IMG/VR virus record: IMGVR_UViG_3300039159_000198
Length of the DNA: 64,000 bases
Source of the DNA: a virus
Taxonomy: Duplodnaviria > Heunggongvirae > Uroviricota > Caudoviricetes
Strand: one strand, 5' to 3'
How positions within the stretch are numbered: position 1 is the first letter of the stretch; every line of letters starts with the position of its first letter. The notes under the pieces were generated by a model. The model saw only the letters and a list, made by a program, of their open reading frames with translations. It searched no databases and was not told the DNA's origin. The position numbers were made by a program, and so were the translations under genes. Of this stretch, positions 392-13,200 are shown piece by piece.

Positions 392-1303
392 ATGATATTA
401 CAGAATAAAATAATTAAAATTAACTGTATTGAGGATATGAAAAATATACCTTCAAACAGTATTGACACAGTAGTTGCTGACCCCCCATATAATATTGGTA
501 AAGATTTTGGTAACAATTCTGATAAACAGGGTATGGAAGAATATATTAAATGGTCTTCTGAATGGATAGATGAATCATATCGTATATTAAAAGATGGTGG
601 TTCTTTATTTGTTTATGGGTTTAGTGAAATACTTGCTCACATTTTTGTAAATGTTCCGTACAATAAAAAATGGTTAGTATGGCATTATACTAATAAAACT
701 ACTCCATCATTAAAAGATTGGCAAAGAAGTCACGAATCAATAATTCATATATGGAAAGGTAATAAAAAAAATTTCAATTTAGACGATGTTCGTGAACCTT
801 ATACTGAGACATATTTAAAAAATGCTGCGGGTAAAACAAGAAAATCAACTAAAGGTCGATTTGGTTCTAAAGAAACTACCTACATAGCTAATGAACAAGG
901 AGCGTTACCTCGTGATGTGTTTAAAGTACCTGCTCTTGCTGGAGGTGATGGAGGTAATGAACGATGGTTTTATTGTAAAGATTGTGAAGACGCGTATCAC
1001 CCAAAAGAAAAGAAGAATCACGACGGACATGATTTTTTTACACATCCAACCCAAAAACCTTACGAGTTAACAAAAAAATTATTTTTATCGTCAATACCGA
1101 AAGATATTAAACCTAATATTATTGTTCCTTTTGCTGGCTCAGGTTCTGAGTTGGTCGTTGCTAGAGATTTAGGGTGTAATTATGAAGGGTATGAATTAAA
1201 TGAAGAATATGTTATTTTTGGTAACAAATGGATTGACAAAACTTTAATACTTTTAAAAAAAAAAATAAGACAGTTACTAACCCCGCCCCTCATCACTAAT
1301 TAA
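392..1303 (+). CDS. DNA methyltransferase, N4-C/N6-A, beta class
   Basis: DPPY catalytic motif near the N-terminus, HPTQKP, and PFAGSGS SAM-binding motif near the C-terminus; a CxxC/His insert precedes HPTQKP. Confidence 0.9.
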   Translation: MILQNKIIKINCIEDMKNIPSNSIDTVVADPPYNIGKDFGNNSDKQGMEEYIKWSSEWIDESYRILKDGGSLFVYGFSEILAHIFVNVPYNKKWLVWHYTNKTTPSLKDWQRSHESIIHIWKGNKKNFNLDDVREPYTETYLKNAAGKTRKSTKGRFGSKETTYIANEQGALPRDVFKVPALAGGDGGNERWFYCKDCEDAYHPKEKKNHDGHDFFTHPTQKPYELTKKLFLSSIPKDIKPNIIVPFAGSGSELVVARDLGCNYEGYELNEEYVIFGNKWIDKTLILLKKKIRQLLTPPLITN

Positions 1304-1369: not shown

Positions 1370-1606
1370 ATGGAATTACAGCAACCAAAAATTAATTTAA
1401 GAGAGTGTCCAACGATAAAATGTGAATCTTGTGAAGGGATTTATTTTAGAGAGGTAATCTACATTAAACGAGTGCCAAAACTAATGACGGGTTCACCTGA
1501 AGATACGACCGTACCTCTGCCGATTTATAAATGTGATTCGTGTGGTCACATCAATGAAGGATTTAATCCATTTGATGAGATGAAAAAAACTTTAATAAAA
1601 GAATAA
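1370..1606 (+). CDS. small zinc-binding protein
   Basis: CESC...CDSC pair in a 78-aa ORF. Confidence 0.7.
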   Translation: MELQQPKINLRECPTIKCESCEGIYFREVIYIKRVPKLMTGSPEDTTVPLPIYKCDSCGHINEGFNPFDEMKKTLIKE

Positions 1607-2388
1607 TGATAAACAGAATAATACATTTCTCGGATTTACATCTAAAATTGTTCAAAGACCACGATTTATATCGTGGAATACTTGAAACAGCATTTAAAGA
1701 ATGGAAAACATTACAACCCGATAGAGTTGTGTTTAGTGGAGACCTTCTCCATAGTAAAAATCAATTAACTCCGGAAGCGATAGAAATATCATCTTGGGTT
1801 TTAACTGAATGTTCTAAAATTGCTAAAACAATATTAATTCCGGGAAATCATGATGCAAACTTAAAGAATGATGATAGGTTAGATAGTATAACACCAATAG
1901 TTAATAACTTAAATAATCCAAATATTGTTTATTATAAGGATAGAGGTATCTACGAAGATGAAAATGTTTCTTGGTGTGTATACTCACAATTTCAAGGAAA
2001 CATTCCTCCGGAGATTGACACGGCAACGGGATTTAAAATTGGGTTATTTCATGACCCGGTACAAGGGTTAACAACTGATTTAGGGTTTGACTTTGGTGAC
2101 CACGCTTATGATACTGAAAAATTTAATGGGCTAGACCTTGTTCTGTGTGGAGATATACACAAACGTGCTATTTTTAATATCCCAAATGGTAAAAGAGGAG
2201 TCATGATAGGTTCATTTTTGCAGCAGAATTTCGGTGAGAGTGTTGGTAAACACGGATATGGTGTTTATGATATTGATACTGATGAATACTCGTTTGTTGA
2301 TTTACCTAATTCTAAACCGTATCTAAAATTTTCGATAGACTCGTTTGATTGTATTGAGAAAGGAACTGAAAGACTCGTAAATTTATAA
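1606..2388 (+). CDS. calcineurin-like metallophosphoesterase, SbcD/Mre11/gp47-like nuclease subunit
   Basis: SDLH, GDLLH, GNHD and GDIH motifs; upstream of the SbcC-like gene. Confidence 0.85.
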   Translation: MINRIIHFSDLHLKLFKDHDLYRGILETAFKEWKTLQPDRVVFSGDLLHSKNQLTPEAIEISSWVLTECSKIAKTILIPGNHDANLKNDDRLDSITPIVNNLNNPNIVYYKDRGIYEDENVSWCVYSQFQGNIPPEIDTATGFKIGLFHDPVQGLTTDLGFDFGDHAYDTEKFNGLDLVLCGDIHKRAIFNIPNGKRGVMIGSFLQQNFGESVGKHGYGVYDIDTDEYSFVDLPNSKPYLKFSIDSFDCIEKGTERLVNL

Positions 2389-4434: not shown

Positions 4435-5046
4435 ATGATGGATTTATTTAATCCTCCACCAATTTTTAATTTAAAAGAAATGAAACACAATTTAGATGTG
4501 GATACATTGGATAATGCGTATATTCAAGTTGTTTGGGAAGATACTCCCGAAAACTTTACGCAAGAAAGAATAAAGTCCGTAAAACAATATTTCACTAAGA
4601 AATACAATTCAACCAACGTAAATGTTATTACAAAGGTTAAAACTAGTGAAGAGACCCAACAAACTATTGATGTGTCTGTTAATATCATGGATAAGAACTA
4701 TCAAAAAGAACTTATCAAATCGTTACTTGAGAGTAAAGGTCAAGACCAATATTTGGACCAAGTGATTGGTATTGATTATATGGTTGAGAATAGAATGGCG
4801 GCGAATGATGTTGAGGTTACACCATTCAAAAAGTGGTACATTAAAAAAATTGAGTTTAGTAACTTCTTATCTTATGGGGAGAACCAAGTGATTGATTTTG
4901 ATAAGTGTGATGGTATTACTGTGGTTGAATCAAATCCACCAAATTTTGGAGGGAAATGTATTAGGTATGATACTGAGATTGAAATCGAATATAATATTGA
5001 TTATATAGTTAATAAGTTAGGTTTTTTACCTGATGAGTTAAAATAA
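4435..5046 (+). CDS. SbcC/Rad50/gp46-like ATPase, N-terminal fragment fused to split-intein IntN
   Basis: IKKIEFSNFLSYGENQVIDFD is an SMC-family N-terminus; Walker A NPPNFGGK is interrupted by intein Cys1. Confidence 0.9.
   Translation: MMDLFNPPPIFNLKEMKHNLDVDTLDNAYIQVVWEDTPENFTQERIKSVKQYFTKKYNSTNVNVITKVKTSEETQQTIDVSVNIMDKNYQKELIKSLLESKGQDQYLDQVIGIDYMVENRMAANDVEVTPFKKWYIKKIEFSNFLSYGENQVIDFDKCDGITVVESNPPNFGGKCIRYDTEIEIEYNIDYIVNKLGFLPDELK
4957..5043 (+). mobile_element. split intein N-fragment (29 aa)
   Basis: CIRYDTEIEIEY resembles intein block A; begins immediately after GGK and ends at stop 5044-5046. Confidence 0.85.
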
Positions 5047-5162
5047 AAATTGCTGAAGATAACGGATACAAAGTTTTAACTATTTGGGATTCTGAATATA
5101 GATGGGGAAATAAAGAAAAAGTTATAAAAAAATGTTTAAAGTTTTTAAAAAATGAAAATTAA
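5046..5162 (+). pseudogene. C-terminal remnant of a Vsr/DUF559-like homing endonuclease
   Basis: Frame from 5046 reads KIAEDNGYKVLTIWDSEYRWGNKEKVIKKCLKFLKNEN*, matching the GYKVLxIWxxE tail of Vsr-like nucleases; no start codon. Confidence 0.7.
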
Positions 5163-5517
5163 AATTGGGGAATTGTATGAAATTTACCAAAAATATGGTG
5201 ATTTAGGGTTTAAAGTTAATACACCATATGGGTATAAGAATATTGAATGGTGTGGTATCACAGAAAAAAATGCGGACATTTATAGGTGTGATTTGGAAAA
5301 CGGTATGTTTATTGAGGGTGCGGATTACCATAAATTAAAAAAAAATAATGATGGATTTACCGTTCTTAAAGAGCTCCAAATAGGAGAAAAAATACAAACA
5401 ATCGAAGGTTTAAGTTCAGTTAAAAACATTCAACTATTAGAAGAGAAAGACACTTTATATGATATTCAGGTAGAGGAGGTTCATCAATATTATTCTAATG
5501 GGATTGTATCACATAAT
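5152..5517 (+). mobile_element. split intein C-fragment (122 aa, no endonuclease domain)
   Basis: IEGADYHKL is block-B-like; block F/G ends His-Asn followed by Thr at 5518. Confidence 0.88.
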
Positions 5518-7371
5518 ACAGTTTTAACAGTCGATTTATTATTATTCCTATTCTTTAATACTACAACCAAAACACAAAGGGCTGAAGAAATTTTTAACAG
5601 ATTTACAGATAAGAATAAAGTAAGTGTTCGTGGAGAAATTTTAATTGATGGTGAGGAGTATATTATTGCTCGTCAAATTGAAAGAAAGATGTCCAAGTCC
5701 GGTGAATGGAATGTGAAAACAGAGTTGGAGTTCTTTAAACGATTATCTGACGGACAACTTCAAAATTTCACCGGAGAACAAAGACGGGAAACAGAAAACT
5801 TTATGAAGAAATCTATAGGTACTATGGATGACTTTTTAATGACCATTGTTACCACAGCGTCAAATCTTGAGGATTTATTGGATGCGAAACCAACTGCCAG
5901 AGGTCAGGTATTATCTAGGTTCTTAGGTTTGGAGTTTTTAAAGAAGAAAGAGGAAACCGGAAAAGAAATCTACTCAGAGTTCTCAAAGGGGATGATATCT
6001 AACATTTATAATACGGAAACCTTAAAACAAGAAAACGAAACCTCAACAACTGATATTGGAAGGTTAAAGGGTGAGATTACTGTGGCGGGTGATAATATCA
6101 CCGAGGTTGACCTATCTCTTAAAAAAGGTCAGGAATATAAGGAGGGGTTATTAAATTCAAAACATAGTGATTTACCTCAGGAACTTATTATTTTGAATCC
6201 GGACAAACTAAAGGAGGAAATTAATACTTATGTTACCAACAGTAAAACGATTCAAGTACAAATTGATAGTGTAAAAATTGTTGAACCAAGTGGGTTTTAT
6301 CATGAGGACAAACATGATGAGGTTAAAGAATTATTAACTAATCATAAAATTCAATTGGGTAATGTGACTCATAAGGTTGGTGAAATTGACTTAATGGTTA
6401 AAAAGTTTGGAGATGGTATTGAGTGTGAGCATTGTGGAATAAAATTGATGGATGCTGCTATCACCAAAAAGAAGATTAGTGAACTTGCGGGATTAAAAGA
6501 AGAGGTTAATATTCATAATAACTTGATTACAGAGTTAGACACTGAAGAAAAAACTTATGTCCAACTGAAAAAAGAGTTTGATGAGTATGAAAGAAACAAA
6601 CTTATCAAGGAGAAGTACGAGGTGTCTTTGGAGTCAAATGGGTTGAAATTAGACGCGGTAAGGTCTAAACTAACAAGATATGAGGAAGTTCAGGATAAGA
6701 TTAAACAGAACAACGATATTGAGACCAAATTGATTAAATCTAATCTTCGTATTGACGAGTTAATCAGTCAAAAACGAGGGTATGAGAGAATTCAAAGTGC
6801 CAATCAAAACCAAATTGATAATTTGATTGCTCGTATTGAAAAAAATAATGGTTTTGTATTGAAAATTGATGAGGAGTTTGAAAAAGAAAAAATCTATAAA
6901 ATCTATAACGAGATTTATGGCAAGAATGGAATTAGTAAAATAATCATGAAAACGATGATGCCCGTGATTAACTCGGAACTTCAAAGGTTACTTCAGGATT
7001 CCTGTTATTTTAACTTGGAGATTCGTATTAATGATAAGAATGAGGTTGAATTTATTATGGTTGATAACTCAACAGGTATTGAGAAATTAATGATGTCAGG
7101 TTCCGGATATGAAAGAACAATTGCATCACTGGCTCTTAGGGCGGTATTAACCAAGGTTTGTTCATTACCAAAACCAAACTTGGTGGCGTTCGACGAAGTA
7201 TTTTCAAAAATTAGTAATGATAATCTCGAAATGGTTGGGGAGTTTTTTAGTAAGTTAAAAGATTATTTTCCAAAAATATTTGTTATTACTCATAACCCGT
7301 TGGTTGGGAATTGGGCGAATAACATTGTCAAGATTACTAAAACCGATAATGTTTCAAAAGTCTCACAATAA
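5152..7371 (+). CDS. split-intein IntC fused to the SbcC/Rad50/gp46-like ATPase C-terminal part
   Basis: Intein end YDIQVEEVHQYYSNGIVSHN then +1 Thr; coiled coil; CEHC zinc hook; MSGSGYE signature; AFDEVF Walker B; ITH switch. Confidence 0.92.
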   Translation: MKIKIGELYEIYQKYGDLGFKVNTPYGYKNIEWCGITEKNADIYRCDLENGMFIEGADYHKLKKNNDGFTVLKELQIGEKIQTIEGLSSVKNIQLLEEKDTLYDIQVEEVHQYYSNGIVSHNTVLTVDLLLFLFFNTTTKTQRAEEIFNRFTDKNKVSVRGEILIDGEEYIIARQIERKMSKSGEWNVKTELEFFKRLSDGQLQNFTGEQRRETENFMKKSIGTMDDFLMTIVTTASNLEDLLDAKPTARGQVLSRFLGLEFLKKKEETGKEIYSEFSKGMISNIYNTETLKQENETSTTDIGRLKGEITVAGDNITEVDLSLKKGQEYKEGLLNSKHSDLPQELIILNPDKLKEEINTYVTNSKTIQVQIDSVKIVEPSGFYHEDKHDEVKELLTNHKIQLGNVTHKVGEIDLMVKKFGDGIECEHCGIKLMDAAITKKKISELAGLKEEVNIHNNLITELDTEEKTYVQLKKEFDEYERNKLIKEKYEVSLESNGLKLDAVRSKLTRYEEVQDKIKQNNDIETKLIKSNLRIDELISQKRGYERIQSANQNQIDNLIARIEKNNGFVLKIDEEFEKEKIYKIYNEIYGKNGISKIIMKTMMPVINSELQRLLQDSCYFNLEIRINDKNEVEFIMVDNSTGIEKLMMSGSGYERTIASLALRAVLTKVCSLPKPNLVAFDEVFSKISNDNLEMVGEFFSKLKDYFPKIFVITHNPLVGNWANNIVKITKTDNVSKVSQ

Positions 7372-8580: not shown

Positions 8581-9378
8581 ATGAAAGAAAAGTTGGGAAT
8601 GCCAATCAATCAAGATGAAATTAGTCATTATCTTAAAGATATTCGTAAGATAAAAGTTATGACACCTGAAAGAGAAAGACAATTGTCTGAAAGAATGTTA
8701 TCTAATGACATTACTAAAACTGAGGTGAAAAAAATCCAAAAAGAATTATTGGAAGGTAATTTAAGATTTGTTATTACAGTTGCGAAGCAATATCAAAATC
8801 AGGGATTGGATTTTCCGGATTTGGTTGCGGAGGGTAATCTTGGATTAATGAAAGCCATTGACAATTTTGATTGGTCTAAAAAGTTAAGGTTTATATCTTA
8901 TGCTGTTTGGTGGGTGAGACAGACTATTTTACAATCTCTAAATGAGAATGCTCGTACTATTCGACTACCAGTTAATGTGGTTCAGGAGTTACAGAGAGCC
9001 AAAAAAGAGTTGGAGAAAGGTGGAGCTGAGTTGCCGGGTAAATTTGCTACTTTACCTTATACCATTAATTTGGATAAACCTCTAAATGAGGAAGGTGATA
9101 CGTTGGTTGATATATTAAACAATCCTAATGCTGAATTACCGGATGCTGGACTATCAAGTGAAGATACGTTAAAAGACAAATTACTTGATATGTTGAATGT
9201 GTTAGACGAGAGGGAAAAAATAATTATTCAAGATTATTTTGGTTTATCAGGGTCTACAAGAACTCTTGAGGATATTGGTGGTGATTTTAATTTAACTAAA
9301 GAAAGAGTACGACAAGTGAAAGAAAAATCTCTTAGAAAATTACGAAATCATTGTGCCGATTTATTTGATTATATGTAA
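8581..9378 (+). CDS. RNA polymerase sigma-70 factor, RpoD-like without region 1.1
   Basis: NLRFVITVAKQY, EGNLGLMKA, RFISYAVWWVRQ (region 2); TLEDIG...LTKERVRQ (region 4). Confidence 0.95.
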   Translation: MKEKLGMPINQDEISHYLKDIRKIKVMTPERERQLSERMLSNDITKTEVKKIQKELLEGNLRFVITVAKQYQNQGLDFPDLVAEGNLGLMKAIDNFDWSKKLRFISYAVWWVRQTILQSLNENARTIRLPVNVVQELQRAKKELEKGGAELPGKFATLPYTINLDKPLNEEGDTLVDILNNPNAELPDAGLSSEDTLKDKLLDMLNVLDEREKIIIQDYFGLSGSTRTLEDIGGDFNLTKERVRQVKEKSLRKLRNHCADLFDYM

Positions 9379-10664: not shown

Positions 10665-11368
10665 TGAATTGGTTTCAAAAAAACTTTAAAACAATAGTTT
10701 ATATTTCGTTTTTAGTTCCAATCTTATTGGTGGCCTTCGTATCTATTTCACATGTTAGTAAATGGTATGGGTTATCAAATCCGAACACGTGGGCGATTTA
10801 TTTATCTGTCGGTATTGAAATAGCGGCGCTATCCACACTAGCCGCAATATCTGCACAAATGGGTAAAAAAGTTTATTTTCCATTTGGTATTGTAACACTA
10901 ATTCAGTTCATTGGTAATATATTCTTCGCCTATCAATATATTGATGTTAATTCGGTTTCATTCAAGGATTGGGTGGATTTAGTTAACCCAATTGTTAGTT
11001 ACTTAGGGGTTGAGTCAGGTGACCTAATTGGTCATAAACGATTCTTAGCTTTATTTTCAGGAGGGATGTTACCAATTATCTCTTTATCGTTTCTACATAT
11101 GTTAGTTAAGTTCGAGGAAGAAGAGAAAAAGAAAAAACCAGTATTACCCACGAACATTGATATTGATGAGTTAAGTCTTATTGCAGGAAAAGAGGAGGCA
11201 AAATTTGTTGAAGATAAATATGTCCCAACTAAAGAAGATTTAAGTCGATTGGAAACTGAGTTGATTAAATTAAATGAAAAGAAATTTGGTTTATTGGAGG
11301 AAACAATTGTGGATGACTCACAACAAGATGGAATTAAACGATTAAATTATTTAAGACGAGATGCCTAA
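10664..11368 (+). CDS. multi-pass membrane protein (holin candidate)
   Basis: about four transmembrane segments plus a charged C-terminal tail; overlaps the amidase start. Confidence 0.6.
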   Translation: MNWFQKNFKTIVYISFLVPILLVAFVSISHVSKWYGLSNPNTWAIYLSVGIEIAALSTLAAISAQMGKKVYFPFGIVTLIQFIGNIFFAYQYIDVNSVSFKDWVDLVNPIVSYLGVESGDLIGHKRFLALFSGGMLPIISLSFLHMLVKFEEEEKKKKPVLPTNIDIDELSLIAGKEEAKFVEDKYVPTKEDLSRLETELIKLNEKKFGLLEETIVDDSQQDGIKRLNYLRRDA

Positions 11369-11966
11369 CATCATACAATTTGGCGATTTTAAGTCAAAAG
11401 GTAAACAAAAACAAAAAAAACAAATAATTCTATGTCATACTTCAAGGGAGGTTCAAGAGTACTTGACCTCCCTTAAACATAGGTATGATGGTCAGTTTGA
11501 TAAAATACCTAATTATGTTGTTACAAAAAATGGTGAAATAATTCAATTATTGCCGGATAATACTTATTCCAATTATCTTAATGGTGATTTGGTTAATAAA
11601 AACTCAATTGTTATTTGTTTGGAAAATTTAGGTTGGTTGGAAAAGAAACCACTAACAAATTATTATATTAACTGGAAAGGAAGTATTTATAATAACAAGG
11701 TGTTTGAAAAAAAATGGAGAGATTTCTTTTTTTGGGACCCCTATACATTAATTCAAATAGAAATGGTTGCTGAGTTGTGTAAGCATTTATCAGAATCTCT
11801 TAACATCGAAAAAAGATGTGTTGGTCATAATACTCGTTTTGAAGGGGTGAATAACTACGAGGGGATTGTGAGTAGAAGTAATTACAACTCAATATACACG
11901 GATTTAAATCCATCATTCAATTTTGAAACTTTTATAAAATATTTAGAAAATGAGCAATTTACTTAA
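11361..11966 (+). CDS. N-acetylmuramoyl-L-alanine amidase (Amidase_2 type), probable endolysin
   Basis: IILCHT, YVVTKNGEIIQL, SIVICLE, VGHN...TDLNP. Confidence 0.8.
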   Translation: MPNIIQFGDFKSKGKQKQKKQIILCHTSREVQEYLTSLKHRYDGQFDKIPNYVVTKNGEIIQLLPDNTYSNYLNGDLVNKNSIVICLENLGWLEKKPLTNYYINWKGSIYNNKVFEKKWRDFFFWDPYTLIQIEMVAELCKHLSESLNIEKRCVGHNTRFEGVNNYEGIVSRSNYNSIYTDLNPSFNFETFIKYLENEQFT

Positions 11967-12522
11967 CGAAAGATACGATGAAATGAAAACTTTGTTAAAA
12001 AAATCAAGAATGATTTTAGAACAAGGTAGTCAGATAAATGTTGCGTCAGATGTTGAATCACGTATTCAACAGGACCAAGAGTATGAAACGGCAGAGACCG
12101 GTATTGATAATGATGAAACCCCATCACCAAAAGACAAAAGACAAAAGTATAGAATCTCAGGGGGTATACTAACTCTTAATGGTAAAGACCGAAACGATTT
12201 GGATATTACTAGTGATGAGAAAATGGCATTTCAAGAAACAATGGATGAATTTATTAATGAGGTGTCGGACCTTGTTGATTTTAATTCATTAAATGTTTAT
12301 CCAAACAATGTTGAATGGTCCGGTAAGTTAATTGATGAAGACCTTGATTTTATTTTTACTATTGGGGAAGATAGTGGGGTTTATATCAATGGACAAATGA
12401 TTAAAATGGATGAGGGATTTATTGATACAATAAATAAACTTCAAAGTTATTACCAAAAATTTAAATCCAAATGGGGTAAAGTTTTGTCTAATAGAAAAAA
12501 AACAGGTGAATCTCCGGAATAA
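11950..12522 (+). CDS. hypothetical protein
   Basis: 190-aa acidic ORF, overlapping operon context. Confidence 0.75.
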   Translation: MSNLLNERYDEMKTLLKKSRMILEQGSQINVASDVESRIQQDQEYETAETGIDNDETPSPKDKRQKYRISGGILTLNGKDRNDLDITSDEKMAFQETMDEFINEVSDLVDFNSLNVYPNNVEWSGKLIDEDLDFIFTIGEDSGVYINGQMIKMDEGFIDTINKLQSYYQKFKSKWGKVLSNRKKTGESPE

Positions 12523-12887
12523 TGAAAGATATAATAGGTAATAACAAACAGAACATATTATTAATTATTGTAATTGTGATGGTAGCTTGGAATATATTCA
12601 CTATTGGTGGGGTTAAAACCGATGTTAAATCATATAAGAAACAAATAGAAACGATTCAAAAAGGTGTTGACTCTGCTCAAGTAGTTAACAAAATAATTGA
12701 TGATAAGGTTAATAAGGTAAATGAAAATGTTACTATTATTACTAAAGAAGTTAGTACTATTGATAATAATTTGACTAACTTAAAAAAGACTACAAATGAA
12801 AAAGTTAATACTGTTAATAAGTTTTCTAATGTTGAGTTGGAATTCTTTTTCACAAATAGATACGACCAAAACAACCTTACCAAATAA
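12522..12887 (+). CDS. N-terminal TM plus coiled-coil protein (spanin-like candidate)
   Basis: single N-terminal TM; overlaps the next gene by ~90 nt. Confidence 0.6.
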   Translation: MKDIIGNNKQNILLIIVIVMVAWNIFTIGGVKTDVKSYKKQIETIQKGVDSAQVVNKIIDDKVNKVNENVTIITKEVSTIDNNLTNLKKTTNEKVNTVNKFSNVELEFFFTNRYDQNNLTK

Positions 12888-13200
12888 AATACTTCGAGAG
12901 GCGGCTAAAGACCTATTAAGGTATGATGGTTGTAAACAAGAGGTGGTCTTATTAAATAATAAAATAGTTAAACTTAATGAGAGGGAAACTCAAAAAGATA
13001 CTGTGATAAATTTATTGAATAAAAAAGATAAAAATAATCAGTTCATCATTGGTAAAAAAGATGAACAATTAACTTTATCAAAAGAACTTTCTGATAAATT
13101 GGAAAAAGAACTTAAAGGACAAAGAGTTAAAACTTTCTTGTATAAACTAGGTACTTTTGTCGGGATTATCACATCAACATATCTATTAATAATAAAGTAA
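12796..13200 (+). CDS. signal peptide, coiled coil and C-terminal TM protein
   Basis: MKKLILLISFLMLSWNSFSQ signal; hydrophobic C-terminus. Confidence 0.65.
   Translation: MKKLILLISFLMLSWNSFSQIDTTKTTLPNKILREAAKDLLRYDGCKQEVVLLNNKIVKLNERETQKDTVINLLNKKDKNNQFIIGKKDEQLTLSKELSDKLEKELKGQRVKTFLYKLGTFVGIITSTYLLIIK

What the first reader, a model, noticed from the sequence alone, without database searches (positions are those of the whole stretch)
4435..7371. Naturally split intein with an atypically short N-fragment (29 aa) in the Walker A of an SbcC/gp46-like ATPase
Seen: ORF 4435 ends ...NPPNFGGK|CIRYDTEIEIEYNIDYIVNKLGFLPDELK*. ORF 5152 starts with 122 aa ending ...NGIVSHN|TVLTVD. Trans-splicing would rebuild the P-loop GGKT, so the ATPase cannot work without it. 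Known: most natural split inteins have a long IntN and short IntC, whereas short-IntN atypical inteins (for example TerL types) are rare and valued for protein semisynthesis. Inference: an endonuclease-free atypical split intein using Cys1 and Thr+1, in a host gene I do not recall for this type.
Basis: partly seen in the sequence, partly recalled or inferred. Interest (0 to 1): 0.8.

Follow-up and report, generated by a model that had tools for sequence, protein, structure and literature searches.

The report
Split-intein gp46/SbcC gene, endonuclease fossil
An uncultured giant phage encodes its Rad50/SbcC-type DNA-repair ATPase as two genes cut inside the ATP-binding loop, and a lopsided split intein (29 + 122 residues) most likely stitches the two proteins together; the kind of element is known, but I found no paper describing it in this host gene.

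Summary
ORF 4435-5046 ends ...GGK followed by a 29-residue IntN, and ORF 5152-7371 begins with a 122-residue IntC ending SHN before Thr+1.

- **Splice junction:** 99 intein-less 790-aa homologues read ...NPPNFGGK|TVLTVD..., exactly the predicted junction.
- **Selection:** both halves are under purifying selection (dN/dS 0.13 and 0.07).
- **Docking:** a complex model docks the halves (0.70; best control 0.01).
- **Fold:** a contiguous relative folds as a HINT domain. The closest solved structure is the VidaL intein.

1. The locus is not natively endonuclease-free. The 105-nt spacer holds the last 40 codons of a 337-aa Vsr-like homing endonuclease, which is intact in relatives.
2. The break lies between strands β2 and β3 (S1 type, as in VidaL), not after helix α1 as in the TerL inteins. 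A 13-residue core carries a 16-residue helix-loop typical of this family.
3. The family is large. About 30 clusters at 50% identity are split at this site, and many others are contiguous.

This is a new member of a known kind, the "fractured genes" of Dassa et al. 2009. This scan has already found it in at least 15 other genomes. Splicing itself is untested.

The parts
1606..2388 (+). Context: calcineurin-like phosphoesterase gene (260 aa), the likely SbcD/Mre11/gp47 nuclease partner of the ATPase
   Evidence: Pfam Metallophos, E 2.2e-12. The same 260-aa gene sits upstream in the related loci.
4435..4956 (+). N-extein of the SbcC/gp46-like ATPase (174 aa), ending ...NPPNFGGK
   Evidence: PHROG 77 hit. 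160 of 173 residues are identical to the intein-less P0012 and P0018. tblastn gives 92% identity over 4438-4953.
4957..4995 (+). IntN core, 13 residues (CIRYDTEIEIEYN): block A with Cys1, strands beta1-beta2
   Evidence: Cys1 is invariant in 7 loci. In the complex model, IntN residues 6-12 pair with IntC residues 2-5 and 20-23. Contiguous relatives P0155, P0247 and P0252 pass from this core almost straight into beta3.
4996..5046 (+). IntN appendix, 16 residues (IDYIVNKLGFLPDELK), plus stop TAA at 5044-5046: a family-specific helix and loop between beta2 and the break point
   Evidence: KxGFLPxEL is almost invariant despite synonymous changes; dN/dS is 0.13. The segment is helical in the AlphaFold2 model of contiguous relative P0136, at model residues 19-26 and 31-33. 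It is present in contiguous P0136, P0140, P0151 and P0159.
5036..5046 (+). 11-nt stretch that a related contig carries on both sides of a 942-nt extra segment: the microhomology at the junction of the endonuclease-gene deletion
   Evidence: In run X1, record 1, window 4734-5046 maps to contig 11097-11409 and window 5036-5600 maps to contig 12352-12916.
5040..5162 (+). Fossil of a free-standing Vsr-like (I-Bth0305I-type) homing endonuclease gene: last 40 codons and stop, in a different frame from the two ATPase ORFs. The stop overlaps the IntC start codon region.
   Evidence: tblastn with the 337-aa ORF of L007 gives 85% identity over residues 298-337, E 1e-16. PHROG 22677 matches profile positions 314-351 of 353. 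The full gene is present in L005-L008. Its catalytic domain matches Vsr 1cw0 (Z 9.9) and I-Bth0305I 3r3p (Z 9.6).
5152..5517 (+). IntC, 122 residues: beta3 (KIKI), helix alpha1, block B (GADYH), blocks F and G ending ...SHN
   Evidence: Pfam Intein_splicing scores 34.3 bits against a cutoff of 35.8. H60, H121 and N122 are invariant. dN/dS is 0.07. 857 relatives were found in the exhaustive search. The family profile matches VidaL 6vgv at E 8.7e-16.
5518..7371 (+). C-extein (617 aa plus stop), starting at Thr+1 (TVLTVD...). It contains a CxxC zinc-hook-like motif and the Walker B region.
   Evidence: PHROG 77 at E 2.8e-29 and Pfam SbcC_Walker_B at 23 bits. 87% identical to the intein-less P0018.

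Best explanation
The phage's SbcC/Rad50/gp46-type ATPase gene is a 'fractured gene'. An intein sits in the Walker A loop between GGK and T. A free-standing Vsr-like homing endonuclease gene once broke this intein in the loop between strands beta2 and beta3.

In this phage a 942-nt deletion between 11-nt repeats has removed nearly all of that endonuclease gene, leaving a 105-nt spacer.

Two proteins are made: N-extein plus a 29-residue IntN, and a 122-residue IntC plus C-extein. The 13-residue IntN core inserts as a strand between IntC strands, completing the HINT fold. The 16-residue helix-loop lies alongside.

Splicing then runs through Cys1, Thr+1 and the terminal His-Asn. It releases a 791-residue ATPase with a restored GGKT P-loop, which works with the neighbouring Mre11/SbcD-like nuclease.

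Shown: gene anatomy, exact junction, conservation, selection, endonuclease fossil, predicted fold and predicted docking. Inferred: that trans-splicing actually occurs, and its rate.
For: - **Junction:** all 99 intein-less 790-aa homologues read GGK|TVLTVD. The predicted spliced product is 88.6% identical to them.
- **Catalytic residues:** Cys1, the block B His, the penultimate His, the terminal Asn and Thr+1 are invariant in 7 diverged loci.
- **Selection (NG86 dN/dS):** IntN 0.13, IntN appendix 0.13, IntC 0.07, exteins 0.07-0.10, at dS of about 1.
- **Docking:** ESMFold2 complex of IntC with IntN scores ipSAE 0.70 against a best control of 0.01. That mark was reached by 58 of 80 solved complexes and 2 of 110 mismatched pairs. 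The runs agree in at least 80% of contacts and the partner pLDDT is at least 70. Solved split-intein complexes exist, so part of this pass may reflect likeness to them.
- **Fold:** contiguous relative P0136 folds with mean pLDDT 92.9. Its best solved match is the VidaL intein 6vgv, with Foldseek E 8.7e-11 and TM 0.89 by target and profile E 8.7e-16.
- **Family size:** about 30 clusters at 50% identity start with this IntC followed by an SbcC-like C-extein.
- **Endonuclease history:** the gene is intact in L005-L008, a 267-nt remnant in L003, 105 nt here and 27 nt in L001. Run X1 holds a contig that differs at 2 places over window 5036-5600 and carries 942 extra nt at this site.
Against: - No splicing assay, and no peptide or RNA evidence from this phage.
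- The Pfam intein score of IntC alone is just below the curated cutoff (34.3 against 35.8 bits).
- The block B Thr is replaced by Ala (GADYH), which has to be tolerated.
- The rest of the 293-kb contig could not be searched, so a second, intact SbcC gene elsewhere cannot be excluded. The 64-kb window holds none.
Confidence: 0.85

Rival explanations
1. Decaying locus: after the endonuclease was lost, the intein halves no longer splice. The ATPase is then dead, or replaced by another gene elsewhere in the 293-kb genome.
For: The endonuclease gene is a fossil. The whole genome could not be searched. The window's extein has a longer terminal branch (0.19) than its intein-less sisters.
Against: Both ORFs are full length with every catalytic residue. 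Intein dN/dS is 0.07-0.13, including the endonuclease-less loci L001 and L003. The deletion looks very recent: an X1 contig that carries 942 extra nt at the spacer differs at only 2 positions over 5036-5600.
Confidence: 0.07
2. The two polypeptides assemble without covalent joining, as in the fragmented NrdA of phage Aeh1, or ribosomes bypass the 105-nt spacer to make one chain with a contiguous intein.
For: Tails derived from mobile elements can assemble split enzymes (abstract of PMC3045599, listed). Earlier notes on this genome propose ribosome hops in other genes (untested here). The two ORFs share a frame.
Against: The break is inside the P-loop, with 151 foreign residues between GGK and T. 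All intein catalytic residues are conserved under purifying selection, which non-covalent assembly would not require. In relatives the gap holds a 1-kb gene on the same strand, and IntC has its own ATG.
Confidence: 0.05
3. Assembly or sequencing artefact: the gene is really one continuous frame.
For: None beyond the general risk of metagenome assemblies.
Against: There are five in-frame stops between the ORFs. The same architecture and stop position occur in six other contigs from different samples. Contigs from runs X2 and X3 cover the junction.
Confidence: 0.01

Closest known systems
Fractured genes with split inteins and free-standing Vsr-like homing endonucleases (Dassa, London, Stoddard, Schueler-Furman, Pietrokovski 2009, PMC2677866)
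   Same: A phage DNA-metabolism gene is cut into two ORFs at an intein, with a free-standing Vsr-like endonuclease gene between the halves in relatives. The reading frames overlap, and a hairpin precedes the endonuclease start.
   Different: The host gene (SbcC/gp46/Rad50) is not among that paper's eight host types; it reports only an SbcD-like gene fractured without an intein. Here the endonuclease gene is reduced to 40 codons. The break is near the N-terminus of the intein, whereas the usual endonuclease insertion site leaves an IntN of about 100 residues.
VidaL atypically split intein (PDB 6vgv; 16-aa IntN; Burton et al. 2020, as cited in PMC13014065)
   Same: It is the closest solved structure by both fold and profile. 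The split site is of the same S1 type, after beta2, so IntC begins with beta3 and alpha1. It is cysteine-dependent.
   Different: Only about 18% identity in the structural alignment. The host protein differs: I recall a T4-like helicase, but that is from memory and unchecked because the paper is not held. This IntN carries a further 16-residue helix-loop, making it 29 aa. The +1 residue here is Thr.
AceL-TerL, GOS-TerL and the consensus Cat-TerL atypically split inteins (IntN 25-37 aa; PMC11766414, PMC13014065)
   Same: Short IntN and long IntC, phage origin, and insertion in a P-loop ATPase. IntC here matches terminase inteins at about 31% identity and CatC 6dsl_B at E 6.8e-12.
   Different: Those inteins are split after helix alpha1 (S2). 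Here alpha1 lies in IntC. The nucleophile pair is Cys1/Thr+1, against Cys/Cys or Ser/Cys.
I-Bth0305I, a Vsr-like homing endonuclease of a phage recA intron (PDB 3r3p)
   Same: The catalytic domain of the 337-aa ORF of relatives matches it at Z 9.6, rmsd 3.0 A, 96 residues aligned, 23% identity. Vsr 1cw0 matches at Z 9.9, rmsd 5.8 A, 127 residues aligned.
   Different: It is free-standing between intein halves, not intron-encoded. The model had low overall confidence (mean pLDDT 61). In the window only the last 40 codons remain.

Membership tests
Intein (HINT protein-splicing domain) | N-terminal nucleophile (Cys/Ser1) in block A | tested here: met
   Cys1 directly follows GGK and is invariant in 7 loci and 23 family members.
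Intein (HINT protein-splicing domain) | Block B histidine (TxxH) | tested here: met
   GADYH, with His60 of IntC invariant. The Thr is Ala here, and Ser/Ala-Pro-x-His in the wider family.
Intein (HINT protein-splicing domain) | C-terminal His-Asn followed by a Cys/Ser/Thr +1 nucleophile | tested here: met
   ...VSHN|T is invariant in the 7 loci. The wider family has SHN|S or SHN|T.
Intein (HINT protein-splicing domain) | In-frame insertion at a conserved host site, with intein-less homologues contiguous across it | tested here: met
   99 homologues of 790 aa read GGK|TVLTVD.
Intein (HINT protein-splicing domain) | HINT fold | tested here: met
   A contiguous relative 46% identical in IntC (P0136) folds with pLDDT 92.9 and matches 61 solved chains at E <= 0.001, the top 50 rows being inteins or intein-like domains, with VidaL first. 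The window's own halves dock in a complex model at 0.70, best control 0.01.
Intein (HINT protein-splicing domain) | Protein splicing activity | not testable with these tools
   Needs expression of the two ORFs and detection of the spliced product.
Naturally split intein in a fractured gene (Dassa et al. 2009) | Two separate ORFs: extein-IntN with its own stop, and IntC-extein with its own start | tested here: met
   Conserved in 6 other contigs.
Naturally split intein in a fractured gene (Dassa et al. 2009) | Free-standing homing endonuclease gene between the halves | tested here: not met
   The window holds only the last 40 codons. The gene is intact in relatives L005-L008 and on P0100's contig. 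The window is therefore a derived, endonuclease-less member.
Atypically split inteins, S2 type (AceL-TerL, GOS-TerL) | Break after helix alpha1, so that IntN holds beta1, beta2, beta3 and alpha1 | tested here: not met
   Beta3 (KIKI) and alpha1 (GELYEIYQKYG) are at the start of IntC. They pair with IntN residues 6-12 in the model. CatC aligns to the family profile only from position 52, whereas VidaL aligns from position 32.
Atypically split inteins, S1 type (VidaL, PolB16 OarG) | Short IntN with the break between beta2 and beta3 | tested here: met
   The site definitions come from PMC13014065. One difference: a 16-residue helix-loop follows beta2 before the break.
SbcC/Rad50/gp46 ABC ATPase | Walker A, long coiled coil with a CxxC hook, signature and Walker B region, and a partner Mre11/SbcD nuclease | tested here: met
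   PHROG 77 matches at E 2.8e-29. Pfam SbcC_Walker_B scores 23.1 bits against a cutoff of 27. A CEHC motif lies in the middle of the C-extein. A Metallophos gene lies at 1606-2388. Walker A is complete only after splicing.
Vsr-like (I-Bth0305I-type) homing endonucleases | Vsr-type PD-(D/E)xK-like catalytic fold with conserved acidic and His residues | tested here: inconclusive
   For the 337-aa relative: Z 9.9 to Vsr and Z 9.6 to I-Bth0305I, but the model's mean pLDDT is only 61. Pfam DUF559 is weak at E 0.022. A profile search against PDB sequences found nothing. The window copy is a 40-codon fossil.

The most novel reading that the evidence does not exclude
The 16-residue helix-loop behind the 13-residue IntN core is a dedicated docking module that lets an S1-type split work in cells. 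In addition, this family moves in both directions between contiguous and split states. The endonuclease invades the beta2-beta3 loop, decays by microhomology deletion as it has here, and the halves can fuse again by loss of the stop codon. The fusion step is suggested by the Mre11-Rad50 fusion protein P0140, whose linker DNA resembles the 27-nt spacer of L001 with TAA changed to AAA. That would make this family a natural record of the whole life cycle of a split intein, and a source of very short IntN peptides using Cys1/Thr+1.
Probability: 0.3. Interest if true: 0.55.

Novelty: new member of a known kind. Interest (0 to 1): 0.42.

Why it matters
**Protein engineering.** Short-IntN split inteins are rare; the papers I read describe natural IntN fragments of 15-37 aa and name four natural examples (AceL-TerL, GOS-TerL, VidaL, PolB16). 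They are sought for protein semisynthesis because the short half can be made chemically. This family offers a large natural sequence pool: about 30 split clusters at 50% identity plus many contiguous forms. It uses Cys1/Thr+1 chemistry, has a 13-residue structural core, and carries an extra helix whose role in fragment association can be tested.

**Biology.** An essential phage recombination and repair ATPase depends on trans-splicing. The locus also captures several stages of the homing cycle in close relatives: an intact endonuclease, three stages of decay, intein-less alleles and contiguous forms.

**Limits.** It is not a new principle. This scan has met the same element in at least 15 other genomes.

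Tried and rejected
- **Phage records, DNA search:** blastn of the locus against 50,697 phage records found nothing. The lineage is known only from metagenomes.
- **Whole genome:** none is held for this window, so I could not look for a second SbcC gene or further copies of the endonuclease outside the 64 kb. Within the window there are none.
- **Endonuclease, sequence searches:** a PDB sequence search with the single protein gave only one chance-level match (E 0.4, a de novo designed protein), and the profile search matched nothing. Pfam gave only sub-threshold DUF559 and MTES_1575 hits. The family assignment therefore rests on a low-confidence model.
- **Co-conversion tract:** a sliding-window comparison of extein DNA with six intein-bearing loci and one intein-less locus showed no clear donor-like tract near the junction. 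The only hint is the X1 contig, which differs at 18 places in 4770-4854 but at only 4 places from 4855 to 5600.
- **RNA evidence:** one 182-nt metatranscriptome contig (X4) covers 5058-5237 with 11 differences. It comes from a relative and shows nothing about expression here.
- **Spacer structure:** RNA folding of the window's spacer shows no structure beyond chance (z 0.33).
- **VidaL paper:** not held, so VidaL's host protein is given from memory only.
- **Literature:** searches for intein together with SbcC, Rad50 or gp46 returned no paper describing such an intein. InBase could not be consulted.
Full report
**Observation**

The window holds two same-strand, same-frame ORFs.
- ORF 4435-5046 (203 aa) ends ...NPPNFGGK, then 29 residues beginning with Cys, then TAA at 5044-5046.
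- ORF 5152-7371 (739 aa) begins with 122 residues ending ...NGIVSHN, then TVLTVD.

The 105-nt spacer has four more in-frame stops, so a single base error cannot merge the ORFs. PHROG 77 (SbcC-like subunit) matches the first ORF at profile positions 208-328 and the second at 336-954. Only the P-loop lies between them.

**The junction is exact**

A protein search with the second ORF returned two kinds of close relatives.
- 99 proteins of 790 aa are 82-88% identical over the extein part only. All of those inspected read ...FGGK|TVLTVDLLL... with nothing between.
- 12 proteins of 738-739 aa match over the full length, including the 122-residue head.

The predicted spliced product (791 aa) is 88.6% identical to the 790-aa proteins. 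So the 29 + 122 residues are an insertion between the Lys and Thr of Walker A.

**It is an intein, under selection**

- The isolated head scores 34.3 bits on Pfam Intein_splicing, just below the cutoff of 35.8. It matches terminase inteins of Campylobacter, Serratia, Vibrio and Delftia phages at about 31-35% identity.
- Six related loci were fetched. In them Cys1, the block B His (GADYH), the penultimate His, the terminal Asn and Thr+1 are invariant.
- Pairwise NG86 dN/dS is 0.13 for IntN, 0.13 for its last 16 codons, 0.07 for IntC and 0.07-0.10 for the exteins, at dS of about 1 or more.
- Intein dS (about 1.1) is lower than extein dS (about 2.3). This fits horizontal spread of the intein among diverged hosts.

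**Fold and docking**

A complex prediction of IntC (135 residues including 13 extein residues) with IntN (39 residues including 10 extein residues) used 7-row alignments.
- It gave ipSAE 0.70 against a best control of 0.01. That mark was reached by 58 of 80 solved complexes and 2 of 110 mismatched pairs.
- The runs agree in at least 80% of contacts, and the partner pLDDT is at least 70.
- Solved split-intein complexes exist, so this shows likeness, not binding.
- The best-defined contacts put IntN residues 6-12 between IntC residues 2-5 (KIKI), 20-23 and 113-117.

A natural contiguous relative (P0136, residues 170-340) folded with mean pLDDT 92.9. Its best solved matches are inteins. VidaL (6vgv) is first by Foldseek (E 8.7e-11, TM 0.89 by target) and by family profile (E 8.7e-16). 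Next by profile are gp41-1, NrdJ-1 and CatC.

**Where the intein is split**

The exhaustive search with IntC found 857 relatives. Two groups stand out.
- About 30 clusters at 50% identity start with IntC within their first 7 residues and continue as SbcC-like proteins. Their exteins are only 23-60% identical to this one.
- Many gp46/SbcC-like ATPases carry a contiguous mini-intein of 135-166 residues at the same GK|C...SHN|S/T site. One is an Mre11-Rad50 fusion.

Three contiguous forms (P0155, P0247, P0252) pass from the 13-residue core almost directly into beta3. Most others have a variable insert there. In the model of P0136 this insert is a helix (model residues 19-26), a short second helix, and then the least confident internal loop (pLDDT 72) before beta3 and alpha1.

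So the window's IntN is a 13-residue beta1-beta2 core plus a 16-residue helix-loop typical of this family, and IntC begins with beta3 and alpha1. By the definitions in PMC13014065, this is the S1 position, as in VidaL and PolB16. It is not the S2 position of AceL-TerL and GOS-TerL. The alignment to CatC fits this: it starts only at profile position 52, against position 32 for VidaL.

**The endonuclease**

In a third frame, positions 5040-5159 encode the last 40 residues of a 337-aa ORF, at 85% identity and E 1e-16. PHROG 22677 matches this stretch at profile positions 314-351 of 353.

That ORF lies intact between the two halves in L005-L008 and on P0100's contig. Its stop overlaps the IntC start. 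The decay series across loci is:

| Locus | What remains between the halves |
|---|---|
| L005-L008 | intact 337-aa gene |
| L003 | 267-nt frameshifted remnant |
| window | 105 nt |
| L001 | 27 nt |

An AlphaFold2 model of the ORF is weak overall (pLDDT 61). Even so, its C-terminal domain matches Vsr (1cw0, Z 9.9, rmsd 5.8 A, 127 residues aligned) and the homing endonuclease I-Bth0305I (3r3p, Z 9.6, rmsd 3.0 A, 96 aligned, 23% identity). Its first 50 residues match helix-turn-helix DNA-binding domains. This is the Vsr-like family that Dassa et al. found in half of their fractured genes.

**Reads**

- A 49-kb contig of run X1 matches 4734-5046 and 5036-5600, with 942 further bases between the two matches. 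It differs at only 2 places over 5036-5600, but at 18 places in 4770-4854.
- So a near-identical phage still carries the endonuclease gene. The window's form arose by a recent deletion between 11-nt repeats, and a recombination boundary lies about 100 nt upstream of the intein.
- Contigs of runs X2 and X3 carry the deleted form. X3 covers 4974-5124 without a difference, but it may be the source sample.

**Evolutionary placement**

In a maximum-likelihood tree of C-exteins, the 33 sampled intein-less alleles and the window's allele form one clade (support 100/100). The other split alleles form a basal grade, so at least two gains or losses are needed. Either the intein re-entered this lineage by homing, or it was lost more than once.

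**What is known**

- Dassa et al. 2009 list eight host types, none of them SbcC. They report an SbcD-like gene fractured by a Vsr-like ORF without an intein.
- The papers I read describe natural atypically split inteins with IntN fragments of 15-37 aa and name AceL-TerL, GOS-TerL, VidaL and PolB16.
- Searches for intein with SbcC, Rad50 or gp46 found no description.
- This scan has reported the same element in at least 15 other genomes, and the endonuclease fossil in this same window. Those notes agree with what I tested here.

**Verdict**

This is a real split intein, very probably functional, and a new member of a known kind. Confidence that it trans-splices is about 0.85. The rival explanations are a decaying locus, non-covalent assembly or ribosomal bypass, and an assembly artefact; together they hold about 0.13.

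Noticed in passing
L009:1501-4554 (P0140), compared with L001:3950-4020: A 1017-aa Mre11-Rad50 fusion protein carries a contiguous intein at the same P-loop site. The DNA of its beta2-beta3 linker (…TTA AAA AAA TTA GAG AAT GCC ATG…) resembles L001's IntN stop plus its 27-nt endonuclease remnant (…TTA AAA TAA TTA GAA AAT GTT…), with TAA read as AAA. This may be a split intein fused again after endonuclease loss. The sequence is AT-rich, so chance is not excluded.
   Followed up: partly
L005:1944-2003: A strong hairpin (-24.2 kcal/mol, z -4.6, 0 of 200 shuffles as good) sequesters the start codon of the intact endonuclease gene, like the 5' hairpins Dassa et al. describe. It is degenerate in L007 (z 0.64).
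   Followed up: partly
window 4734-5600, against the run X1 contig: A near-identical phage in a freshwater metagenome still has 942 extra nt at the spacer, the size of the endonuclease-gene segment missing here. Identity drops sharply upstream of about 4855 (18 differences in 85 nt). This marks a recombination or co-conversion boundary about 100 nt before the intein site.
   Followed up: partly
window 4435-7371, C-extein tree: The window's extein nests inside the clade of intein-less alleles (support 100/100), while the other split alleles form a basal grade. Intein dS (about 1.1) is about half the extein dS (about 2.3). Both point to horizontal movement or repeated precise loss of the intein.
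   Followed up: partly
L010:1231-2334 (P0136): A contiguous form of this intein that keeps the IntN helix-loop. Its C-extein ends about 30 residues after the intein on a 2.4-kb contig. This could be a second break, a frameshift or an assembly problem.
   Followed up: no
window 392-1303 and 8581-9378: Flanking genes include an N6/N4 DNA methyltransferase (Pfam E 1.4e-36) and a phage-encoded sigma-70-type factor with regions 1.2, 2 and 4. Both are conserved in synteny in the related contigs.
   Followed up: no
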